A stretch of DNA of 64,000 nt from assembly GCF_009914755.1 (NCBI RefSeq), contig NC_060930.1; one strand, 5' to 3'. Below are positions 1 to 38,683 of this stretch, one piece after another (positions within the stretch are counted from its first letter, which is position 1; the number at the start of each line of letters is the position of its first letter). Both the position numbers and the translations under genes were made by a program. Source of the stretch: the human T2T-CHM13v2.0 reference genome, Homo sapiens. The notes under the pieces were generated by a model that was given only the letters and a program-made list of their open reading frames with translations, did no database searches and was not told the origin of the DNA.

Positions 1-317
<317 letters not shown>

Positions 318-375
318 CTAAAATATCTCTGATCATGTCTCTCTCTTCTGAAAATATTTGCCTCACTTGTTTCAG

Positions 376-480
376 AAAATGGAATCATCAAGACAGATAA
401 AGTATTTGAAGTGATGCTGGCTACAGACCGCTCCCACTATGCAAAATGTAACCCATACATGGATTCTCCACAATCAATAG
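376..480 (+). CDS. PCMT1: PCMT1 exon 2 (105 nt)
   Basis: tttcag|AA AAT GGA...TCA ATA G|gtaagc; translates (K)[34 protein letters not shown](G), matching the recalled PIMT N-terminal region. Confidence 0.98.
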
Positions 481-602
481 GTAAGCTTTAGATTTCTGAA
501 AATATCATAGTTTTCATCATTTACTTTATGATTTTTGGAAGTAGAAAAAGCCTGGGACACAGATATTTATCTATTATTACCTTCTTAATTTGAATTTTAT
601 GA

Positions 603-1032
<430 letters not shown>

Positions 1033-1950
1033 TAAAAAAAAACTTTTAATGAAAACTTACAGTATTAGCCGAGTGCTGAGTTTTCTTTAGGGGCCTTAGT
1101 GTTGACTAAAGATTAGTTTTCAGGTTAGGATTAATTTTTTAAATCAATATTTAAATAAGTGTGCTTAAGTTATTAATGACTTCTCTGCTTTATTTGCCCT
1201 GCTTTTTTGGCTTGTGTTTGTTTTTAGAAAGTCCTGTATTTAACTCCTTCTCCTGAAGCAGGTTTTGCTGAACTGCTGAGCCTTGGCAGTGGGCGCCTTT
1301 GAGGCTTAGAAGTGCCTCAGGATTCTGTCAGTCGGCTGCCATGCTATCTTCTTTTGACGCACTATAACAGTCAGCAGAGAAGATCCTGGGGAGCTTCTGA
1401 ACCCCGAAGGCACCTGCTACCACCGCTCAGTGAAACTTGCTTCAGAGGCAGAAAGAAGCAGGTAAATAAGTTTTGAGAAAGCAACACCACAAGAAAAGAA
1501 ACTAAAAGTTAAGAACCACGAAAAGATTGTGTGAATTAACATTAGATGATAAGATAAAGAATAAAATGAAGTATTTTATTGGTCTTTTAAGCTACTTTTT
1601 CAGTTATTCTAGTTTTTTTTTAAGTTGACAGAAATATGAAGCAATTTAATTTTGCACAGACTTTGTATACCTATTACATATGAAAACTTATTTTTAAAAA
1701 ACAATCTGAAGTAAAAACAAGCCAAAAATATATCAACTCTCAACTTACTGAAATTTTTCTTTTCTTAGCTGACTCTACAGGAGAAGAAATTTTTAGCTGC
1801 CGTACTTTAGAGGGACTGTTTTACTAGATGAGCACGTTACCCTTTGGCATGATTATATTTTCTAATTTTAACTGCTGGGTGACAGTACTCTAATAGAAGT
1901 AAGTTTTATTTTCTTGAGATCATAAAAACTAAAAAAGAATTATTGTGAAA

Positions 1951-2249
<299 letters not shown>

Positions 2250-2351
2250 GAATTATTGTGAAAAATAACGTATGGATGGTAGAAAAGAAATTATGTGAAA
2301 TAGTATATTTTTACAGCTGACTGTATCAGTAGTTCTCTTCTTCTTTTGCAG

Positions 2352-2383
2352 GTTTCCAAGCAACAATCAGTGCTCCACACATG
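2352..2383 (+). CDS. PCMT1: PCMT1 exon 3 (32 nt)
   Basis: ttttgcag|GT TTC CAA GCA ACA ATC AGT GCT CCA CAC ATG|gtaagt = (G)FQATISAPHM; phase matches exon 2. Confidence 0.97.
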
Positions 2384-2545
2384 GTAAGTTAAGTTTGTTC
2401 ACTTGGTTACAAATGGATTACATTTTTCTCTATAATCATTTTCTTTAGTAAAAAAGATTTAAAGAAAGTTGTATCAATTTATCATCTATGAGTTATGTGA
2501 ATTGGTAATGAACATCATTTTCTTTTTTGAACATCTTATTCTTAA

Positions 2546-2877
<332 letters not shown>

Positions 2878-3721
2878 CAGAAGGAGCTTTTTAAGGTAGA
2901 AACTGGCATATTAAAAGATTTTGGTGGTTGTCAGTATCTGTGACATGTAAAAATTGAACATAAAAGGTTATTTAGTAGACAGTTAATTAATGGAGATAAT
3001 ATTTTAAATAGTATAATGGACATTTTATAGAAATCTCAAGTTGAATATTATTTCACATTTTATGTGGAAAATTCATTAGGGAGTGGTTAAGTATAAGAGC
3101 CATTAAGCTGCATAGCTCCTTGAGAAAGACTTACTTTGAGTGATCTAGCAGTTTTAATCTGTTGGGAATTTTCTTGGGTTTTATTTATTTATTTATTTAT
3201 TTTTGAGACAACTTCTTACCTTGTCACCCAGGCTGGAATGCAGTGGTATAATCATCACAGCTCACTGCAGCCTTGACTCCCGGGCTCATGCAGTCCTCCC
3301 ACCTCAGCCTCCTAAAGTGCTAGGATTACAGGCATGAGCCACTGTGCCCAACCTTTTCTTAGGGTTTAAATGTCAGTATTTGAATGAGTACTTTTGTTTT
3401 ATTTTGTAGGAAAGAACAATAGCTTTTCTTTTCTTTTTCTTTTCTTTTTTTTTTTCGAGATGGAGTCTCACACTGTTGCCCAGGCTGGTGTGCAGTGGCA
3501 CGATCTTGGCTTGCTGCAACCTCCGCCTCCTGGGTTCAAGTGATTCTCCTGCCTCAGCCTCCTGAGTAACTAGCATTACAGGTGCCCGCCACCACACTCA
3601 GCTTATGTTTTGTATTTTTAGTAGAGACGGGGCTTCACTATGTTGGCCAGGCTGGTCTTGAACTCCTGACCTTGTGATCCACCCGCCTCAGCCTCCCAAA
3701 GTGCTGGGATTATAGGTGTGA

Positions 3722-3922
<201 letters not shown>

Positions 3923-5071
3923 TGAGACGGACTCTCACCTGTGGCCCAGGCTGGAGTGCAGTGGCGCCATCTTGGCTCACTGCAAGCTCCGCCTCCTGGG
4001 TTCACGCCATTCTCCTGCCTCAGCCTCCTGAGTAGCTGGGACTACAGGTGCCCGCCACCATGCCCTGCTAGTTTTTTGTATTTTTTAGTAGAGACGGGGT
4101 TTCACCATGTTAGCCAGGATGGTCTCGATCTCGTGACCTTGTGATCCGCCCGCCTCGGCCTCCCAAAGTGCTGGGATTACAGGCGTGAGCCACCCCACCC
4201 AGCCTTAACTTTTTGTATTTTTAATAGAGACAGGGTTTCACCTTGTTGGCCAGGCTGGTTTTGAACTCCTGACCTCAGGTGATCCACTCGCCTTTGCCTC
4301 CCAAAATGCTGGGATTATAGGCATGAGCCACTGCGCCTGGCCAGAACAATAACTTTTCTGATTCTCTGCAAGTATTTGGGGTTGGAGAAGCTCTTATTTA
4401 AACTTAATACTAAAATAAATTCTATATGTATTTATAGCAAATTGATAATTATCCTAGAAGAAAAAAGCAGACATTTATAAAAATTGAATAGTAATGTCTT
4501 TTTGAAACATGACAGAAAACACAGAAGCCATTAAAAAAACCTGATACATTTTGAAACTTACATATCTAGGATTTTTGCGGAGAAAAAATGTTATAAGCAA
4601 AAATTAAAGAGGAAAAATTGGCTGTGTGTGGTGGCTCACACCTGTGTAATCTCAACACTTTGGGAGGCCGAGGCAGGAATATCGCTAGAAGCCAGGAGTT
4701 TGAGACCAGCCTGGGCAACAAAGCAAGACTCTGTCTCTACAAAAAATTTTAAAAATTAGTTGGGTGTGGTGGCAATGTTCCTGTAGTCCCAGCTACAAGG
4801 GAGGCCAAGGCAGAAGGATTGTCTGAGTCCAGGAATTTGAGGCTGCAGTGAGCCATGATTGTGCTACTGCACTCCAGCCTGGTTGACAGAGACCCTCATC
4901 TCAATAATAATAATTAACGATTGAGGGAAATATTGTAATACATATGACAGCAAGGGAAAATTTCAATATGTAGACATGTATGCATACATTTGTGTTTGTG
5001 TGTATCCTGTTAATAAGTGAAAGACCGGTAAGCCCAAAAGAAAATGTGTAAAGGACAGGATTGATAGTTCA

Positions 5072-5380
<309 letters not shown>

Positions 5381-5576
5381 TCATTGAACAGAAATACAAA
5401 TGACATTGACATTTAAACAAATGAAAAGATGTCATCTTCACGTATTTAAATTTTTTTTTTTTTGAGGCAGAGTCTTGCTCTGTTGCCCAGGCTGGAGTGC
5501 AGTGGCATGATCTCGGCTCACTGCAAGCTGTGCCTCCTGGGTTCTCGCCATTCTCCTGCCTTAGCCTCCCGAGTAG

Positions 5577-5696
<120 letters not shown>

Positions 5697-6383
5697 TAGC
5701 TGGGATTACAGGTGTGCACTACCATGCCCGGCTAATTTTTGTATTTTTAGTAGAGATGGGGTTTCGCCATGTTGGCCAGGCTTGTCTCCTGACCTGACCT
5801 CCTGACCTCAAGTGATCTCCTGACCTCAAGTGATCCACCCGCCTTGGCCTCCCAGAGTGCTGGGATTACAGGTGTGAGCCACTGTGCCTGGCCATTAAAA
5901 TTTTTTTTTGTAGAGACAGGGCCTCACTTTGTTACCCCAGGTTGGTCGTGAACTCCTGGGCTCTAGTGATCCTCTTGCTTTGGCCTTCTAAAATGTTAGA
6001 TTACAGGCATAAGCCACCATGCCCAGCCTCATCTTCACTTATACTTAGTAAATTGCAAATTAGCACTATAATGAGGTACCAGTTTTCACCTATCAGATTG
6101 TTAGAGATTAAAAAATTTGATACTTTGTATTGGAAATGGAAAACTGGCAGTCACATACTTTTTTTGTGTGGGAGAGTACATTGAATGTTTTTGGAAGACA
6201 ATTTGGCAGTATCTATCGAAATGTGAAATAAATATAACTTAGATTTCCCAGTTTTATTTCAAGATATTTATCCCATAATATATACATGAGTGCAGAGTGA
6301 CTTAAGTTATTTATTGACGTCTTATTTATTATAATTACAAAAAGCAATGTCCACAAATGGTGGATGGTTAATAAATTACAGTA

Positions 6384-6748
6384 CAGATGCTCCTTGACTT
6401 ACATGGGGGTATGTCCTGGTAAACCCATCATAAGTTGAAAATACTGTAACTCTAAAATGCATTTAATATACTTAGCCTACCAAACTTCATAGCTTAGCCT
6501 TGCCTACCTTAAATGTGCTCAGAACACTTACGTTAGCCTACAGTTGGGCAAAATCAACTAACACAAAGTCTGTTTTATAATAAAATGGTGAATATCACAT
6601 GTAATTTATTGAATATTGTACTGAAAGTGGAAAATAGAATGCATGTATGGGTACTTGAAGTACAATTTGTACAGAACGTGTATAATTTTTACATCATCGT
6701 AAAGTCGAGAAATCATATGTTGAACCACTGTTAAGTCAGGGACCATCT
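6384..6748. mobile_element. MER47A/Tigger5-type non-autonomous Tc1/mariner element
   Basis: TIRs CAGATGCTCCTTGACTTA... and ...TAAGTCAGGGACCATCT with TA flanks; internal sequence matches the recalled MER47 consensus. Confidence 0.8.
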
Positions 6749-7084
6749 TAACCTCCATGTTGTGGAGTATTGTGAAACTGTTAAATGAAAAGAACTCTGC
6801 AAGTACAAATATGACAAAGTCTTCAAGAAATGCAGTATAATACTTACAGGTGGTTTTTTGGGTGGGAAAAATAAGAATGAAATAGTATAAAAGTTGAGTC
6901 CCAAAGGGTATTTAGAATATTCTGTAATGTATGAAAATCACATATGCACACATACATGCACACATATGTTTTTCTTTGGGAATGAAAACTAAAAATAATT
7001 TCTTCTAAGATAGGAATTAGCTTATTTAGGATATATGGGTGGAATTGAGATCTGATTTTCACTCTGTGTCCTTGATCTGTTATC

Positions 7085-7521
<437 letters not shown>

Positions 7522-7672
7522 TAATTTTTTTTAACATTTTAATTTTTTATTATTATTATTTTTGAGATGGAGTCTCTCTCTGTCGCCCAGGCTGGAGTGC
7601 AGTGGCACAGTCTCAGCTTAGTGAAACTTTTGCCTCCCAGGTTCAAGCAGTTCTCCTGCTTCAGCCTCCTGA

Positions 7673-8022
<350 letters not shown>

Positions 8023-12632: not shown

Positions 12633-14654
12633 TAGCCAGCCTGGTCTCGAACTCTTGACCTCGTGATCTGCCCACCTCAGCCTCCCAAAGTGCTGGGATA
12701 AGAGGCATAAGCCACCGCACCCGTCCCACATGTTATTAATTATAAAGAAAAAAATATGCCTTGAAAGTAGAGTGATCTATTGGTGACCACATTTACTGAG
12801 TGGTTGAGGTTGACATGTCCGGTGGTGTGGTGGTCCAATATTATATACGTCTTAATGTGATGCTCTTAGGGAGTTGCATAGCAAGACTTGCGTGTGTTCT
12901 TGCTAGACGTCTTTGATCTGAATCTAACCCTGAGGAAGCAGAGACATCTAGAATGTGGTGCATTATGTGTGGGACAACTGGACAGGACTCTTTTTTTTTC
13001 TCCCCCCTGAGACAGGGTCTTGCTCTGTTGCCCAGGCTGGAGTGCAAAGATCATAGCTCACTATAACCTCAAGCTCTTCAGCTCCAGTGATCTTCCTGCC
13101 TCTGCCTCCCAAGGAGCTGGGACTATAGGCATGTGCCATGACCCACACTCAGATAATTTTTAACTTTTTTGTAGACATACGGTCTCAACTGTGTTGTCCA
13201 GGCTTATTTCAAACTCCTGGTCTCAAGTTATCCTTCCACTTTGGCCTTTCAAAGCACTCGGATTATAGGTATAAGTCACCATGCCTTGCCAGGACTCCTT
13301 AAATGAGTCAGTGTCCTGAAGAACAGAGCAAAGTGGTAGGTGGAGGGAGATAATTGGGGGAACATTCTAGATTGGCAAATGTAATGCATGAACCTTGAAT
13401 ATATTGGGGGAAAAAACAGCCATTTAACACATATTTGTGTGTTACCCCTAAAAGGGTTCTGTGGAACATTAAGGACTTTCTGGTTTGAAAGTTTGAAATG
13501 TCTTGGATTATGTGAGGCTGTATCTATTCAAGGCCTTCTCTCCATATATAAGTTGGGGGAAAAGATAGCTTTAACTTTTTAAAAATTCTTTTTTTAAGCT
13601 CCCAAGTGCTTGGAAACCTTAGCTTTAAATAAAAACACAACTTCTTATTATGGAAAATTATGGAAGAGTTCCAGTACCATATATACAAATAAAATAGTAT
13701 AATGAACCTATAAATCACCCAGCTTTAATAATGACCAACAATTTACTAATCTTGTTTTATTTAACTCTCTCTTTTTTTTTTTTTGAGGCAGAGTCATGCT
13801 CTGTGGCCCAGGCTGGAATGTAGTAGCGCAATCTCAGCTCACTGCGGCCTGCTGGGCTCAAATCATCCTCTCACCTCAGCCTCTCGAGTAGCTGGGACTA
13901 CAGGTGTGCACCACCACATCCACCTCATTTTTGTATTTTTGTAGAGATGGGGTATCGCTGTGTTGCCCAGGCTGGTCTTGAACTCCTGAACTTAAGCAAT
14001 CCACCCACCTCGGCCTCCCAAAGACTGGGATTACAGGCTATGAACCACTGCTCCTAGTGTAACTCTCTCTTTTGCTGAAGTATTTTAAAGCAAATCCCAA
14101 ACATACATAATATTATTTCATCCCTGGATACGTTATTATAAATCTCAATGACTTTAAACATAAACTACAATGTCATTATCATACCTAACAATGTTTCTTA
14201 ATATCTTATGTCTACTCCACGTTCAAAGTTTGCCAGGTGCTTAAAAATTTTTATAGTTAATTCGCTTAAATCAGTATCCACACAGAGTCTATACATTGCA
14301 TATTTTTGGTCTTGTTTCAGTTTTTTAAAGTATCTTTTAATTTTTAAAGAAAGACCCCTTTCTTTTTTTAAATGCCATTTGTTTATTGACTAAAGTAGTT
14401 CATTTGTTATATAGAATTTCCCATATTCTGAATTTGGTTAATTGTTTCCTAGTGGTGGTTGACTTATTCTTAAAACTTTTTTTTTCAGGAACACTTCCTA
14501 ATGGTCCTTCCTGTTGCATCATATCAGGAGGTCCATAACGTCTGGTCATCATCCACTTTTAGTGATTGGAATAAGTAGTTGTTAATTTTTTTTTAATTGT
14601 TCCATGGAATAGGGCATTTTCGTTCTATCTTTCTCTTTGGCATTGGCTGTTTTC

Positions 14655-16719
14655 TTTTTTTTTTTTTTTAATTTAAATGTGGTATGTTTATTCAGTTCTT
14701 TTTTTTTATTTTTATTTTTTTTTATTGATTATTCTTGGGTGTTTCTCGCAGAGGGGGATTTGGCAGGGTCATAGGACAATAGTGGAGGGAAGGTCAGCAG
14801 ATAAACAAGTGAACAAAGGTCTCTGGTTTTCCTAGGCAGAGGACCCTGAGGCCTTCCGCAGTGTTTGTGTCCCTGGGTACTTGAGATTAGGGAGTGGTGA
14901 TGACTCTTAACGAGCACGCTGCCTTCAAGCATCTGTTTAACAAAGCACATCTTGCACCGCCCTTAATCCATTTAACCCTGAGTGGACACAGCACTTGTTT
15001 CAGAGAGCACAGGGTTGGGGGTAAGGTCACAGATCAACAGGATCCCAAGGCAGAAGAATTTTTCTTAGTACAGAACAAAATGAAAAGTCTCCCATGTCTA
15101 CTTCTTTCTACACAGACACGGCAACCATCCGATTTCTCAATCTCTTCCCCACCTTTCCCCCCTTTCTATTCCACAAAGCCGCCATTGTCATCCTGGCCCG
15201 TTCTCAATGAGCTGTTGGGCACACCTCCCAGACGGGGTGGTGGCCGGGCAGAGGGGCTCCTCACTTCCCAGTAGGGGCGGCCGGGCAGAGGCGCCCCTCA
15301 CCTCCCGGACGGGGCGGCTGGCCGGGCGGGGGGCTGACCCCCCCACCTCCCTCCCGGACGGGGTGGCTAGCCGGGCAGAGGAGCTCCTCCTTCCCAGTAG
15401 GGGCGGCCAGGAAGAGGCGCCCCTCACCTCCCGGACGGGGCGGCTGGCCGGGTGGGGGGCTGACCCCCCCCACCTCCCTCCCAGACGGGGCGGCTGGCCG
15501 GGCGGGGGTGCTGACCCCCCCACCTCCCTCCCGGACGGGACGGGGCGGCTGGCCGGGCGGGTGTGCTGACCCCCCCACCTCCCTCCCGGACGGGACGGGG
15601 CGGCTGGCCGGGCGGGGGTGCTGACCCCCCCCACCTCCCTCCCGGACGGGGCGGCTGGCCGGGCGGGGGGCTGACCCCCCCACCTCCCTCCCGGACGGGG
15701 CGGCTGGCCGGGCGGGGAGCTGACCCCCCCACCTCCCTCCCGGACGGGGCGGCTGGCCGGGCGGGGGGCTGACCCCCCCACCTCCCTCCCGGACGGGGCG
15801 GCTGGCCGGGCGGGGGCTGACCCCCCACCTCCCTCCTGGACGGGGTGGCTGCCGGGCGGAGACGCTCCTCACTTCCCAGACGGGGTGGCTGCCAGGCGGA
15901 GGGGCTCCTCACTTCTCAGACGGGGCGGCTGCCGGGCGGAGGGGCTCCTCACTTCTCAGATGGGGCGGCCGGGCAGAGACGCTCCTCACCTCCCAGACGG
16001 GGTCGCGGCCGGGCAGAGACGCTCCTTACCTCCCAGACGGGGTCGCGGCTGGGCAGAGGCGCTCCTCACATCCCAGACGGGGCGGCGGGGCAGAGGCGCT
16101 CCCCACATCTCAGACGATGGGCGGCTGAGCAGAGACGCTCATCACTTCCTAGATGGGATGGTGGCCGGAAAGAGGCGCTCCTCACTTCCTAGATGGGATG
16201 GCGGCTGGGCAGAGACGCTCCTCATATCCCAGACGGGGTGGCGGCCGGGCAGAGGCTGCAATCTCGGCACTTTGGGAGGCCAAGGCAGGCGGCTGGGAGG
16301 TAGAGGTTGTAGCTAGCCGAGATCACGCCACTGCACTCCAGCCTGGGCACCATTGAGCACTGAGTGAACGAGACTCTGTCTGCAATCCTGGCACCTCGGG
16401 AGGCCGAGGCTGGTGGATCACTCCGGTTAGGAGCTGGAGACCAGCCCGGCCAACACAGCGAAACCCCGTCTCCACCAAAAAAATACGAAAACCAGTCAGG
16501 TGTGGTGGCGCGCGCCTGCAATCGCAGGCACTCGGCAGGCTGAGGCAGGAGAATCAGGCAGGGAGATTGCAGTGAGTTGAGATGGCAGCAGTACAGTCCA
16601 GCTTCGGCTCGGCATCAGAGGGAGACCGTGGAAAGAGAGGGAGACCGTGGGGAGAGGGAGACCGTGGGGAGAGGGAGACCGTGGGGAGAGGGAGAGGGAG
16701 AGGGAGCGGGAGCGGGAGC
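14655..16719 (-). mobile_element. Full-length SVA retrotransposon (probably SVA_D), antisense in PCMT1 intron 3, with 3' transduction
   Basis: On the minus strand: (CCCTCT)n/CCCGCT hexamers (about 16620-16718), Alu-like domain (about 16250-16620), GC-rich VNTR (about 15230-16250), SINE-R (about 14721-15230), poly(A). TSD TGGCTGTTTTC at 14644-14654 and 16720-16730. Subfamily is from recall. Confidence 0.96.
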
Positions 16720-17500: not shown

Positions 17501-19327
17501 TAGCCAGGATGGTCTCGATCTCCTGACCTCGTGATCTGCCTCGGCCTCCCAAAGTGCTGGGATTACAGGTGTGAGCCACTGTGCCCGGCCAATGCTCTTT
17601 ACCTTTAAAAATAAGGACATTCTCTTACATACCCATAGTACAATTTTTGAAATCTGGAAGTCAGCATTGATATAACACTATTAGCCAATTTATAGACCTT
17701 ATTCAGATTTCATCAATTATTCTGATAATATTCCTTATAGGAAAAGAAAATAGTAGATTGTGAGTTTTATTTGATTGTCATGTCTTTTTAGTTTCCTTTA
17801 AAGAATGACTGAGAAATGGTTCCTTATTCTTTTATGACCTTGAAAACCTTGAAAATATTTACGAATATGGGCCATTTATTTTGTATAATGTCCCTCAATT
17901 TGGGTTTGTTTGATGTTTCCTCATAATTCAATATAGGTTATGCATTTTTGCCTGGCATATCCCAGAAATGAAGTATCTTAGCAGAGGCATTTGATGTCAG
18001 TGTGTCCCATAATTGTGGTGTTAACTTTGATCATCTGATTAAGGTAGTGTTGACCCAGTTTTTCCACTGGAGAACTTTTTTCTGAAGTCCATTGTAAAAT
18101 TACTATTTTTCCTTTTGTGATTAATAATTATCTGGGGCAAACCCTTTGAGATTATGTAAATATCCTGTTTATTTTTCAAATGTTAGTCCACTAGTTTTAG
18201 CTTCCATTTATGATTTTTACCTGAATCAATCAGTTATTATTGAGATGGCTGCCCAAAGGCTGATTTTCTTAATTTTTTCTATGTGCATTCATTATGTATC
18301 TATATATTTGTTGGGAACAGTTTTCCCTATTTTTCATTTATATATGTATAGAATAATGTATTAATTTATCACTATAGATTAATGGATGGGTATTTTTATC
18401 AACCAAGATCTGGTAGTAAATGTGTTTACTGCTATTGGATCTGATTTTTTTTTTTTTTTTTTTTTTTGAGATGGAGTCTCGCTCTGTTACAGCCCAGGCT
18501 GGAGTGCAGTGGCATGATCTCGGATCACTGCAATCTCCCCGTCCCGGGTTCAAGCAGTTCTCTGCCTCAGCCTCCCGAGTAGCTGGGATTACAGGTGGCT
18601 GCCACCATGCCCAGCTAATTTTCTTGTATTTTTAGTAGAGATGGAGTTTCACCATCTTAGCCAGACTGGTCTTGAACTCCTGACCTCGTGATCTACCTGC
18701 CTCAGCCTCCCAAAGTGCTGGAATGACAGGCCTGAGCCACCACGCCCAGCCTGATCTGATTATTTTTAATAATGAGAATACTGGCTGGGTGTGGTGGCTT
18801 ATGTATGTCATCCCAGCACTTTGGGAGGCCGAGGTGGGCGGATCACCTGAGGTCGAGAGTTTGAGACCAGCCTGACCAACATGGAGAAACCTCATCTCTA
18901 TTAAAAATACAAAATTAGCCTTTGTATTTTTGTATTTGCTTATATATGCAAAGAATCTATTCCTTCCTTTTTGGAAGGAGTCACAAGAAACTAGTAATAT
19001 TGGTTACCTTTACAGAGTGAAACCTGGATGGTTGGAAATGGGAGTAGGGTGGAGACTTTTCACTTATAAATCTTTTAATTTTTTTACTGAATTAATTAAG
19101 TTAAAAATTCACACACTGGAGGTCTAAAATTACTGAAACACATGATCTGAATGTAAGAATTCTAATCAAACAGTTTACTTAAGTAATACCTGGGCAGATA
19201 GCCAAGATAACTTGGTTATCTTGGTAGATGACAATAGTAGAAAAATTGGTAGAAAGTTGGCAACTTTATTTATATACCATGATGTGTGTACTTTAGTCTT
19301 AATGAATATTTTGTTTTCTTTTGGCAG

Positions 19328-21352: not shown

Positions 21353-21791
<439 letters not shown>

Positions 21792-22059
21792 TTAATTTTT
21801 TAAATTTTTATATTTTTTCTTGAAACATTTATACTTAATATTTTAATTTACAAATAAATATGCAAAGAAGGGATTTTTGTTGTTGTTGCTTTTTGTTTGT
21901 TTTCTGAGACAGGGTCTCAGTCTGTCATCCAGGCTGGAGTGCAGTGGCACGATCTCAACTCACTGCAGCCTCTGCCTCCCAGGCTCAAGTGATCCTCACA
22001 CCACATCAGCCTCCTAAGTAGCTGGGACTTAGAAGGCACACGCTACCACACCTGGCTAG

Positions 22060-22206
<147 letters not shown>

Positions 22207-22318
22207 TAAAAGCAGTAGAAACAAGTGTAGAAATTCCTTCCCATCAGGCGGGAGGCAGGGTGTGTGGTGGCTCAGTCCTGTAATCCCAGCACTCTGGGAG
22301 GCCAAGGCGGGCAGATCA

Positions 22319-22564
<246 letters not shown>

Positions 22565-30984: not shown

Positions 30985-31119
<135 letters not shown>

Positions 31120-31183
31120 TAATTTGTATATACTAAATAAAGAACGTTTCTGCTTTCTGCCTATGGACACTAAAAGTTGTTTA

Positions 31184-31749
<566 letters not shown>

Positions 31750-37987: not shown

Positions 37988-38209
<222 letters not shown>

Positions 38210-38319
38210 TAGCCAGGATGGTCTCGATCTCCTGACCTCATGATCCGCCCGCCTTGGCCTCCCAAAGTGCTGGGATTACAGGTGTGAGCCACTGCCCCTG
38301 GCCAAATTGTAGTAAATTA

Positions 38320-38683
<364 letters not shown>

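What the first reader, a model, noticed from the sequence alone, without database searches (positions are those of the whole stretch)
1228..1461. Candidate poison cassette exon that just encloses the hairpin
Seen: U-rich acceptor ttgtgtttgtttttag|AAAG (AG at 1226-1227) and donor GCAG|gtaaat (1461/1462) bracket the hairpin with only 25 and 16 nt to spare. The exon is 234 nt (a multiple of 3), but spliced after exon 2 it reads GAA AGT CCT GTA TTT AAC TCC TTC TCC TGA. The stop (1254-1256) lies at the base of the stem. Inference: a structure-controlled NMD exon that tunes the level of this SAM-consuming repair enzyme; folding would bring the two splice sites close together.
Basis: partly seen in the sequence, partly recalled or inferred. 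Interest (0 to 1): 0.8.

Follow-up and report, generated by a model that had tools for sequence, protein, structure and literature searches.

The report
Edited hairpin exon inside PCMT1 intron
A long RNA hairpin in an intron of the human protein-repair gene PCMT1 seems to be a mammal-conserved, RNA-edited alternative exon that would switch the message off when included; it is listed as an exon in mouse, but its use in human was not shown here.

Summary
The sequence facts are all correct: AG 1226-7, a 234-nt interval, donor CAG|GTAAAT at 1461/1462, a hairpin at 1253-1445 and an in-frame TGA at 1254-6.

Two papers make this more than a chance pseudoexon. First, Pinto et al. 2014 list one PCMT1 intron site among 59 mammal-conserved A-to-I editing sites. 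Its predicted partner lies 118 nt upstream. In my folds that geometry fits A1412 opposite C1294, an A.C mismatch in this stem. Second, a mouse study lists a Pcmt1 cassette exon of 194 nt after the 105-nt exon 2. That exon contains the mouse editing site 47 nt from its 3' end; in human the distance is 49 nt to donor 1461.

The donor is therefore probably genuine. The acceptor is uncertain. The tandem AAG|CAG at 1257-1261 fits the mouse exon length better than AG 1226-7. Every version gives a premature stop.

The palindrome is larger than reported: 1187-1213 pairs with 1446-1471 and buries the donor. Folding would most likely silence the exon.

No human junction evidence could be obtained, RefSeq has no exon here, and no data link it to SAM. 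Verdict: partly supported, a new member of a known kind.

The parts
1187..1213 (+). Upstream extension of the palindrome; pairs with 1446-1471 (the purine-rich exon end plus the donor)
   Evidence: pair list; duplex -23.0 kcal/mol; 0 of 13,543 other windows as good
1214..1252 (+). 39-nt asymmetric internal loop.
   Evidence: Sequence; structures. P(unpaired) of AG 1226-7 is 0.30-0.48 in 5 contexts. The branch-point consensus is recalled, not tested
1228..1461 (+).
   Evidence: Acceptor PWM 6.67, rank 158 of 2872 AGs
1257..1261 (+). Tandem acceptor AAG|CAG| giving exons 1259-1461 (203 nt) or 1262-1461 (200 nt). It fits the 194-nt mouse cassette better and lies in the basal helix
   Evidence: PWM 7.86, rank 119 of 2872; 6.74, rank 152 of 2872; first stop TGA at 1300-1302. 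(P unpaired 0.0 in 5 of 5 contexts). Mouse exon length
1253..1445 (+). Main imperfect hairpin: 72 base pairs (35 GC, 25 AU, 12 GU) and nine 1x1 mismatches, six of them A.C
1412..1412 (+). Probable mammal-conserved A-to-I editing site (hg19 chr6:150093334 of Pinto et al. 2014), opposite C1294
   Evidence: partner 118 nt upstream. (A1412/C1294 is the position 118 nt apart in the stem). (1 of only 3 adenosines in 1-8000 with that geometry, and the strongest context). The mapping is inferred, not lifted over
1446..1461 (+). Purine-rich exon end AGGCAGAAAGAAGCAG, enhancer-like, paired with the upstream pyrimidine run in the extended fold
   Evidence: The enhancer reading is inference
1462..1467 (+). 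Intronic part of the donor, GTAAAT. PWM 8.58, rank 27 of 2203 GTs. Predicted to be paired with 1192-1197
   Evidence: (P unpaired <= 0.06 in 5 of 5 contexts that include 1187 onward)
376..480 (+). PCMT1 exon 2 (105 nt), the upstream partner. The mouse event's upstream exon is also 105 nt
   Evidence: Hub annotation
2352..2383 (+). PCMT1 exon 3 (32 nt), the expected downstream partner
   Evidence: Hub annotation

Best explanation
The interval overlaps a genuine alternative cassette exon in PCMT1 intron 2. It is conserved in therian mammals and is unproductive (a poison exon). Its body is a long imperfect hairpin that ADAR edits.

The donor at 1461/1462 is most likely the true 5' splice site. 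Any version places a stop codon more than 150 nt upstream of the next exon junction, so the isoform should be degraded by nonsense-mediated decay or give no enzyme.

The palindrome (about 1187-1471) buries the donor and the proximal acceptors. Once folded, the RNA should skip the exon. Inclusion would need U1 and U2AF to bind before the right arm is transcribed, or a helicase to open the stem. ADAR edits A1412, an A.C mismatch, which would tighten the stem.

Shown: the sequence, the fold, the stops, the published editing site and the published mouse exon. Inferred: the coordinate mapping, use of the exon in human, decay of the isoform and the silencing role of the structure.
For: (1) Pinto et al. 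2014 (PMC4053846), Table 1 row 45, lists chr6:150093334 (+), PCMT1 intron, among 59 conserved sites (passage).
- Supplement file 1 gives 22.2 for human and 31 for mouse (mm9 chr10:7368312), in columns I read as percent editing (header not seen).
- Opossum: 3 reads, 0.33 edited. Platypus: 5 reads, 0. Cow: 0 reads. Rat: '-' (header).
- Table S8 marks the flank as conserved in mouse, dog and opossum, but not in chicken or zebrafish.
- Table S11 predicts the complementary nucleotide at chr6:150093216, 118 nt upstream.

(2) In my MFE the position 118 nt apart is A1412 opposite C1294, a 1x1 A.C mismatch between pairs 1293-1413 and 1295-1411. Among adenosines in window 1-8000 only 3 have that geometry: 1412 (19 of 25 neighbouring positions paired in register), 1743 (10 of 25) and 7601 (17 of 25).

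(3) PMC5063418, Table 1 (section 6 part 1), lists the mouse event chr10:7368849-7368953(-) @ 7368265-7368458(-) @ 7367068-7367419(-), delta-psi -0.27, Bayes factor 29.77.
- The upstream exon is 105 nt, the same as human exon 2.
- The cassette is 194 nt and contains 7368312, 47 nt from its 3' end. Human A1412 is 49 nt from donor 1461.
- The distance from the end of exon 2 to the site is 537 nt in mouse. In human it is 932 nt, or 508 nt after removing the 424-nt masked repeat at 630-1053.

(4) Stops: TGA 1254-6 (acceptor at 1228) or TGA 1300-2 (acceptors at 1259 and 1262), 205 and 159 nt upstream of the cassette donor.

(5) Structure:
- z = -5.64 and z = -5.96 for 1180-1480.
- Donor P(unpaired) <= 0.06, and proximal AGs 0.0, in 5 of 5 contexts.
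- The partner segment 1187-1213 is the best of 13,544 windows tested.
- A G at 1412, used as a proxy for inosine, lowers the MFE from -101.7 to -107.1.

(6) The hairpin is single-copy in the window's genome, so it is not a young repeat.
Against: - No human transcript evidence was available. RefSeq shows no exon here in 9 PCMT1 transcripts (hub table).
- The hg19 and mm9 coordinates were mapped by geometry and distances, not by liftover. My recalled hg19 gene start would put the site about 555 nt further downstream, at roughly 1966. That position lies inside an Alu and cannot be conserved in mouse, so I think my recollection or an assembly indel is at fault. The conflict is still unresolved.
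- The mouse psi values come from total-RNA SOLiD reads scored by MISO. Intronic pre-mRNA reads over the cassette can mimic inclusion.
- The mouse downstream exon is 352 nt, not the 32-nt exon 3, so the underlying mouse transcript may be a truncated non-coding one.
- The hairpin is not the strongest local fold in the gene. Windows at 38191, 18631, 31051, 22111 and 5281 have larger GC-corrected residuals.
- 12 G.U pairs against 6 A.C mismatches is too weak a bias to show selection on the + strand RNA.
- With a context that leaves out 1187-1213, the donor is as open (0.26) as real donors (0.27-0.44).
Confidence: 0.55

Rival explanations
1. The hairpin is conserved for a function other than splicing, such as a nuclear dsRNA element bound by ADAR or other dsRNA-binding proteins, or a processing substrate. 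The flanking splice-like motifs would then be used only as noise, and the mouse exon would be a rare by-product captured in annotation.
For: Pinto et al. treat the site as intronic. [quoted passage not shown] RefSeq has no human exon here. The acceptor motifs are weak. The donor and the proximal acceptors are predicted to be buried. The mouse psi comes from total RNA.
Against: The mouse cassette boundaries sit at nearly the same distance from the editing site as the human donor (47 against 49 nt). No Rfam family, miRNA or other, matches 1228-1461 at E <= 1. A delta-psi of -0.27 with Bayes factor 29.77 is more than a trace signal.
Confidence: 0.25
2. This is a chance pseudoexon in human. The motifs happen to flank an old inverted repeat, and the exon is never used in human cells, whatever happens in mouse.
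For: 14 other loci in 40.8 kb pass the same two PWM thresholds. There is no RefSeq exon. The primate-specific inverted Alus at 738-1041 and 1940-2241 could loop the region out.
Against: The donor belongs to a palindrome whose core is reported as conserved to opossum. Mouse uses an exon with matching geometry. From the densities (3.9 acceptors and 0.66 donors per kb), I calculate by hand that both motifs fall within 25 and 16 nt of a given hairpin about 0.1% of the time. That margin was chosen after the fact.
Confidence: 0.12
3. A SAM-sensing switch of the MAT2A/METTL16 kind: methylation of the hairpin couples exon inclusion to the SAM level.
For: Only that PCMT1 consumes SAM, plus a heptamer CAGAGAA at 1375-1381 in the mismatch-rich apical stem. 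It matches the last seven positions of the METTL16 nonamer as I recall it.
Against: The first two positions of the recalled nonamer are absent (AG in their place). The heptamer lies in a stem, not in a hairpin loop. No paper I searched links PCMT1 splicing to SAM.
Confidence: 0.03

Closest known systems
Conserved poison (NMD) cassette exons, e.g. those of SR-protein and hnRNP genes
   Same: A conserved intronic block flanked by splice sites, whose inclusion brings in a premature stop and makes the mRNA unproductive. The SPLASH+ preprint passage cites such exons in SRSF5, SRSF7, SRSF11 and HNRNPDL.
   Different: PCMT1 is not a splicing factor, so no autoregulatory loop is evident. Conservation is reported only to marsupials. 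The exon body is one long hairpin. Human usage is not shown.
Conserved intronic ADAR sites of Pinto et al. 2014, including the edited exonized LINE in SLC9A6
   Same: The PCMT1 site is one of their 59 sites. [quoted passage not shown] So a conserved 'intronic' editing site lying in an alternative exon has a precedent.
   Different: I saw only the heading of that section, not its text. In PCMT1 the duplex is a local fold-back within the exon. No repeat family could be assigned (single copy).
ADARB1 (ADAR2) self-editing that creates a 3' splice site and a frameshift (recalled)
   Same: RNA editing in a local intronic duplex coupled to an unproductive splice choice.
   Different: A1412 is 150 nt or more from any candidate splice site and does not create or destroy one (sequence). 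No editing of the AGs is reported.
5' splice sites masked by stems (MAPT exon 10, SMN2 exon 7 TSL2; recalled)
   Same: A helix covering the donor limits U1 access and lowers inclusion. Here the donor is predicted to be paired with 1192-1201.
   Different: Those stems are short and local. Here the partner lies about 265 nt upstream and closes a roughly 285-nt palindrome around the whole exon. No experimental probing exists.

Membership tests
Poison (NMD-target) cassette exon | AG acceptor and GT donor with usable context | tested here: inconclusive
   Donor PWM 8.58 (27 of 2203 GTs as good). Acceptors 6.67, 7.86 and 6.74, all below the weakest of the 7 real acceptors at 8.07. The PWM is recalled and approximate.
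Poison (NMD-target) cassette exon | In-frame stop more than 50-55 nt upstream of a downstream exon junction | tested here: met
   TGA 1254-6 or TGA 1300-2, 205 or 159 nt before the cassette donor, with further junctions downstream. The 50-55-nt rule is established knowledge.
Poison (NMD-target) cassette exon | Transcript or junction evidence of inclusion | tested here: inconclusive
   Mouse: a MISO skipped-exon event with delta-psi -0.27. Human: none available, and RefSeq has no exon here (hub table).
Poison (NMD-target) cassette exon | The isoform rises when NMD is inhibited | not testable with these tools
   No expression data. The 12 papers that hold both PCMT1 and 'nonsense-mediated' gave no such result in the two I opened.
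Conserved ADAR substrate | Long, largely double-stranded fold-back containing the edited adenosine | tested here: met
   72 pairs in 1253-1445, with A1412 in an A.C mismatch.
Conserved ADAR substrate | Observed A-to-I editing in more than one species at the orthologous site | tested here: inconclusive
   Published for human, mouse and opossum (1 of 3 reads). Assignment to A1412 rests on my mapping.
METTL16/MAT2A-type SAM-sensing hairpin | Complete nonamer motif presented in a hairpin loop | tested here: not met
   Only the last 7 of 9 positions are present (1375-1381), and they lie within a stem. The motif is recalled.
microRNA precursor | Match to a known family, or a stem of about 33-35 bp with a defined loop | tested here: not met
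   No Rfam match within 1228-1461 at E <= 1. The stem is about 72 pairs or more.
MITE / DNA-transposon relic | Multiple related copies in the genome and target-site duplications | tested here: not met
   Only the locus itself was found in the 3.1-Gb genome at E <= 10. This is BLAST-level sensitivity and would miss very old families. No direct repeats were seen at the ends.

The most novel reading that the evidence does not exclude
The hairpin is a conserved double-stranded RNA switch. The balance between folding with ADAR binding and editing on one side, and unwinding by a dsRNA helicase or co-transcriptional capture by U1/U2AF on the other, sets how much PCMT1 pre-mRNA is diverted into a poison-exon isoform. 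This would tie protein-repair capacity to the cell's dsRNA/ADAR state. It would also explain why this one 'intronic' site is among the few editing sites kept since the marsupial-placental split.
Probability: 0.15. Interest if true: 0.8.

Novelty: new member of a known kind. Interest (0 to 1): 0.55.

Why it matters
PCMT1 repairs isoaspartyl damage in proteins, and its dosage matters for brain function and ageing. Pinto et al. list the PCMT1 intron site among only 59 mammal-conserved editing sites and call the conservation of such intronic sites enigmatic.

If the edited hairpin is the body of a conserved unproductive exon, that puzzle gets a concrete, testable answer. It would also give a clean natural case of an exon whose own fold hides its splice sites.

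In the searches I could run, no paper joins the editing site, the mouse exon and a poison-exon role. Supplements of most papers, and GENCODE, were not visible to me, so the human exon may already be annotated elsewhere.

Tried and rejected
- Repeat origin: the genome search on the window's own genome found only the locus itself, both for 1228-1461 and for 1245-1455 at E <= 10. A DNA alignment of the two arms (A1; 78% mean column identity) was not accepted as a query. The repeat finder with a 9-nt seed missed the hairpin altogether, reporting only an A/T-run pair.
- Known RNA families: none match within 1228-1461. All hits in 1-3000 are Alu-derived (SRP, mir-1268, mir-3135) or weak.
- Orthologues: a scan of genome contigs with a 17-mer around the editing site gave 119 bacterial or archaeal loci. 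The longest similarity to 1101-1600 was 32 nt, so these are chance matches and no mammalian contaminant was found. No vertebrate genomes other than the window's own are held, so splice-site conservation and covariation could not be tested.
- Uniqueness of the hairpin: rejected. Of 1352 sliding 240-nt windows, this one is not among the 15 largest GC-corrected residuals.
- Strand test: 12 G.U against 6 A.C is not decisive.
- Read-through by editing: in the proximal-acceptor frame the only stop, UGA 1300-2, ends in A1302, which is itself an A.C mismatch. The 200 and 203-nt lengths still shift the frame, so I rejected the idea that editing rescues the isoform.
- Literature: 'PCMT1' with 'poison exon' found 1 paper, unrelated to this exon. 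With 'cryptic exon', 0. With 'nonsense-mediated' and 'cassette exon', 0. Predicted hg19 and hg38 exon coordinates, 0. The mm9 cassette coordinates appear as such only in PMC5063418; the other listed hits have unrelated titles and I took them for chance digit strings without opening them.

Full report
**1. The observation**

- a U-rich tract ending in AG at 1226-1227;
- an interval 1228-1461 of 234 nt;
- GCAG|GTAAAT at 1461/1462.

Translation in the PCMT1 frame confirms that exon 2 (376-480) ends in phase 1 (...DSPQSI, then G|). Joining it to 1228 reads ESPVFNSFS and then TGA at 1254-1256, with five in-frame stops across the 234 nt.

The interval folds into a long imperfect hairpin. The MFE is -101.7 kcal/mol, z = -5.64, with 0 of 200 shuffles as good. 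The opposite strand folds less well: -91.9, z = -3.67. The main stem (1253-1445) has 72 pairs (35 GC, 25 AU, 12 GU) and nine 1x1 mismatches, six of them A.C. The margins of 25 and 16 nt, and the position of the stop in the basal helix, are correct.

**2. Is it more than chance?**

On splice motifs alone it is not. I used a position-weight matrix built from recalled, approximate human frequencies.
- The acceptor scores 6.67. 158 of 2872 AGs on the + strand of 1-40794 are as good, and all 7 annotated PCMT1 acceptors score higher (8.07-17.6).
- The donor scores 8.58. 27 of 2203 GTs are as good, and it beats 3 of the 6 main annotated donors.
- 31 acceptor-donor pairs 50-300 nt apart pass both thresholds. 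They fall at 17 distinct donors: 2 real exons, this candidate and 14 others.

The hairpin is also not the strongest local fold in the gene. Among 1352 sliding windows, several at 38191, 18631, 31051, 22111 and 5281 have larger GC-corrected residuals. Most of these lie in or beside the masked repeats.

The case therefore rests on outside evidence.

**3. A published conserved editing site maps into the stem**

Pinto, Cohen and Levanon 2014 (PMC4053846) define 59 mammal-conserved A-to-I sites. Row 45 is chr6:150093334 (+), PCMT1, intron (passage). Their supplementary workbook adds the following.
- It gives 22.2 for human and 31 for mouse (mm9 chr10:7368312), in columns I take to be percent editing (header not seen).
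- Opossum has 3 reads with 0.33 edited. Platypus has 5 reads with 0. Cow has no reads. Rat is '-' (header).
- Table S8 marks the flank as conserved in mouse, dog and opossum, but not in chicken or zebrafish.
- Table S11 predicts the complementary nucleotide at chr6:150093216, 118 nt upstream, within a complementary region 150093206-150093233.

In my folds the position 118 nt apart in this stem is A1412 opposite C1294. It is a 1x1 A.C mismatch between pairs 1293-1413 and 1295-1411, in all three contexts tried. From established knowledge, an A.C mismatch is a favoured ADAR context.

I scanned window 1-8000 in 300-nt windows. Only three adenosines have a partner or opposite base exactly 118 nt upstream: 1412 (19 of 25 neighbouring positions paired in register), 1743 (10 of 25) and 7601 (17 of 25).

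I could not run a liftover. My recalled hg19 gene start would place the site near 1966, about 555 nt away. That position lies in an Alu and cannot be conserved in mouse. I therefore trust the geometric mapping, but I flag the discrepancy.

**4. A published mouse cassette exon contains the mouse site**

PMC5063418 studied SMN-depleted NSC-34 cells with total-RNA SOLiD reads, MISO and mm9. Its Table 1 (section 6 part 1) lists a Pcmt1 skipped-exon event: chr10:7368849-7368953(-) @ 7368265-7368458(-) @ 7367068-7367419(-), with delta-psi -0.27 and Bayes factor 29.77.
- The upstream exon is 105 nt, the size of human exon 2.
- The cassette is 194 nt and contains 7368312. The site lies 146 nt from the cassette's 5' end and 47 nt from its 3' end. 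In human, A1412 is 49 nt from the candidate donor at 1461.
- The distance from the end of exon 2 to the site is 537 nt in mouse. In human it is 932 nt, or 508 nt once the 424-nt masked repeat at 630-1053 is removed.

These agreements support both the mapping and the donor.

1228 lies 184 nt upstream of A1412, whereas the tandem acceptors AAG|CAG| (exon starts 1259 and 1262) lie 153 and 150 nt upstream. The left arm also carries an unpaired 8-nt bulge at 1267-1274. The tandem acceptors score 7.86 and 6.74 (ranks 119 and 152 of 2872). They follow an 11-nt pyrimidine run (1244-1254) and a TTAAC motif (1240-1244). They give exons of 203 and 200 nt, whose length mod 3 is 2, the same as the mouse exon's 194 nt.

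With these acceptors the first stop is TGA 1300-1302 and the frame is shifted as well. The unproductive character therefore does not depend on which acceptor is used.

**5. The structure is bigger than reported and hides the splice sites**

Folding with more context extends the helix. 1187-1213 pairs with 1446-1471, so CAG|GTAAATAAG pairs with 1188-1201. The duplex energy is -23.0 kcal/mol. None of 13,543 other 27-nt windows in 1-40794 pairs as well with 1446-1471 (mean -7.3, sd 3.2, next best -20.9). The region 1180-1480 folds at -123.2, z = -5.96, with 0 of 100 shuffles as good.

In 5 of 5 contexts that include 1187 onward:
- the donor has P(unpaired) <= 0.06;
- the proximal AGs have 0.0;
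- AG 1226-7 sits in a 39-nt asymmetric loop at 0.30-0.48.

As a control, real donors in 430-nt contexts are 0.27-0.44 unpaired. The candidate donor is 0.26 when its upstream partner is left out of the context. So the masking depends on the long-range helix.

My inference is that the folded RNA skips the exon, and that inclusion needs splice-site capture before the right arm is made, or unwinding of the stem. Editing at 1412, modelled as G, stabilises the fold by about 5 kcal/mol. These are predictions only.

**6. What it is not**

- Not a known RNA family: no Rfam match in 1228-1461.
- Not a recognisable repeat: single copy in the 3.1-Gb genome at BLAST sensitivity.
- No METTL16-type motif: only a 7-of-9 partial match to the recalled nonamer, at 1375-1381, inside a stem.
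- No searched paper links PCMT1 splicing to SAM.

**7. Comparison and novelty**

It works like a conserved poison exon, and at the same time it is a conserved ADAR substrate. The editing site and the mouse exon are each in print or in annotation. I found no paper joining them or proposing the exon in human.

I rate it a new member of a known kind, of moderate interest. It offers a concrete explanation for one of the few conserved 'intronic' editing sites, and it is directly testable.

**8. Limits**

- No human RNA evidence and no cross-species sequence were available.
- The coordinate mapping is inferred.
- The PWM is recalled.
- The mouse psi comes from total RNA.
- The mouse downstream exon (352 nt) is not the 32-nt exon 3.

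Noticed in passing
window 738-1041 (antisense Alu) and 1940-2241 (sense Alu): An inverted Alu pair flanks the candidate exon: four arm pairs of 46-173 nt, 77-81% complementary, about 900-1160 nt apart (SRP and mir-1268 Rfam hits). In primates this could loop out the cassette, favour back-splicing or add a second ADAR substrate.
   Followed up: partly
window 1300-1302 and 1404: In the frame set by the proximal acceptors, the only stop inside the cassette is UGA 1300-2. Its A1302 is itself an A.C mismatch opposite C1404. Editing there would read as UGG, though the 200 and 203-nt lengths still shift the frame.
   Followed up: partly
window 1373, 1381, 1401, 1419 (and 1302): Besides A1412 there are five more A.C mismatches in the stem. 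These are further candidate editing sites. Only one conserved site is reported in Pinto et al.
   Followed up: no
window 1375-1381: Heptamer CAGAGAA in the mismatch-rich apical stem. It matches the last seven positions of the METTL16 nonamer as I recall it, and the first two are missing.
   Followed up: partly
window 38161-38490, 18601-18930, 31021-31290, 22081-22380, 5281-5550: Local 240-nt folds stronger than the PCMT1 hairpin after GC correction. Several lie in or next to the masked repeats in the hub table (37991-38677, 18436-18941, 21783-22207). They are probably palindromic or adjacent inverted repeats.
   Followed up: no
window 15181-15930: Windows of 73-85% G+C with very low folding energies, inside masked stretch 14688-16128 and just downstream of the RefSeq enhancer 14643-15143. 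Possibly a GC-rich tandem repeat.
   Followed up: no
literature, not the window: Three leads. Fagnani et al. 2007 (PMC2394768) list Pcmt1 (EST AA981003) among genes with CNS-regulated alternative splicing (passage). The SPLASH+ preprint names PCMT1 among core genes with pan-tissue regulated splicing and highly conserved intronic sequence (passage). PMC11884054 links the dsRNA helicase DHX9 to PCMT1 translation (search listing only). I could not determine which exon or element is meant in any of them.
   Followed up: no
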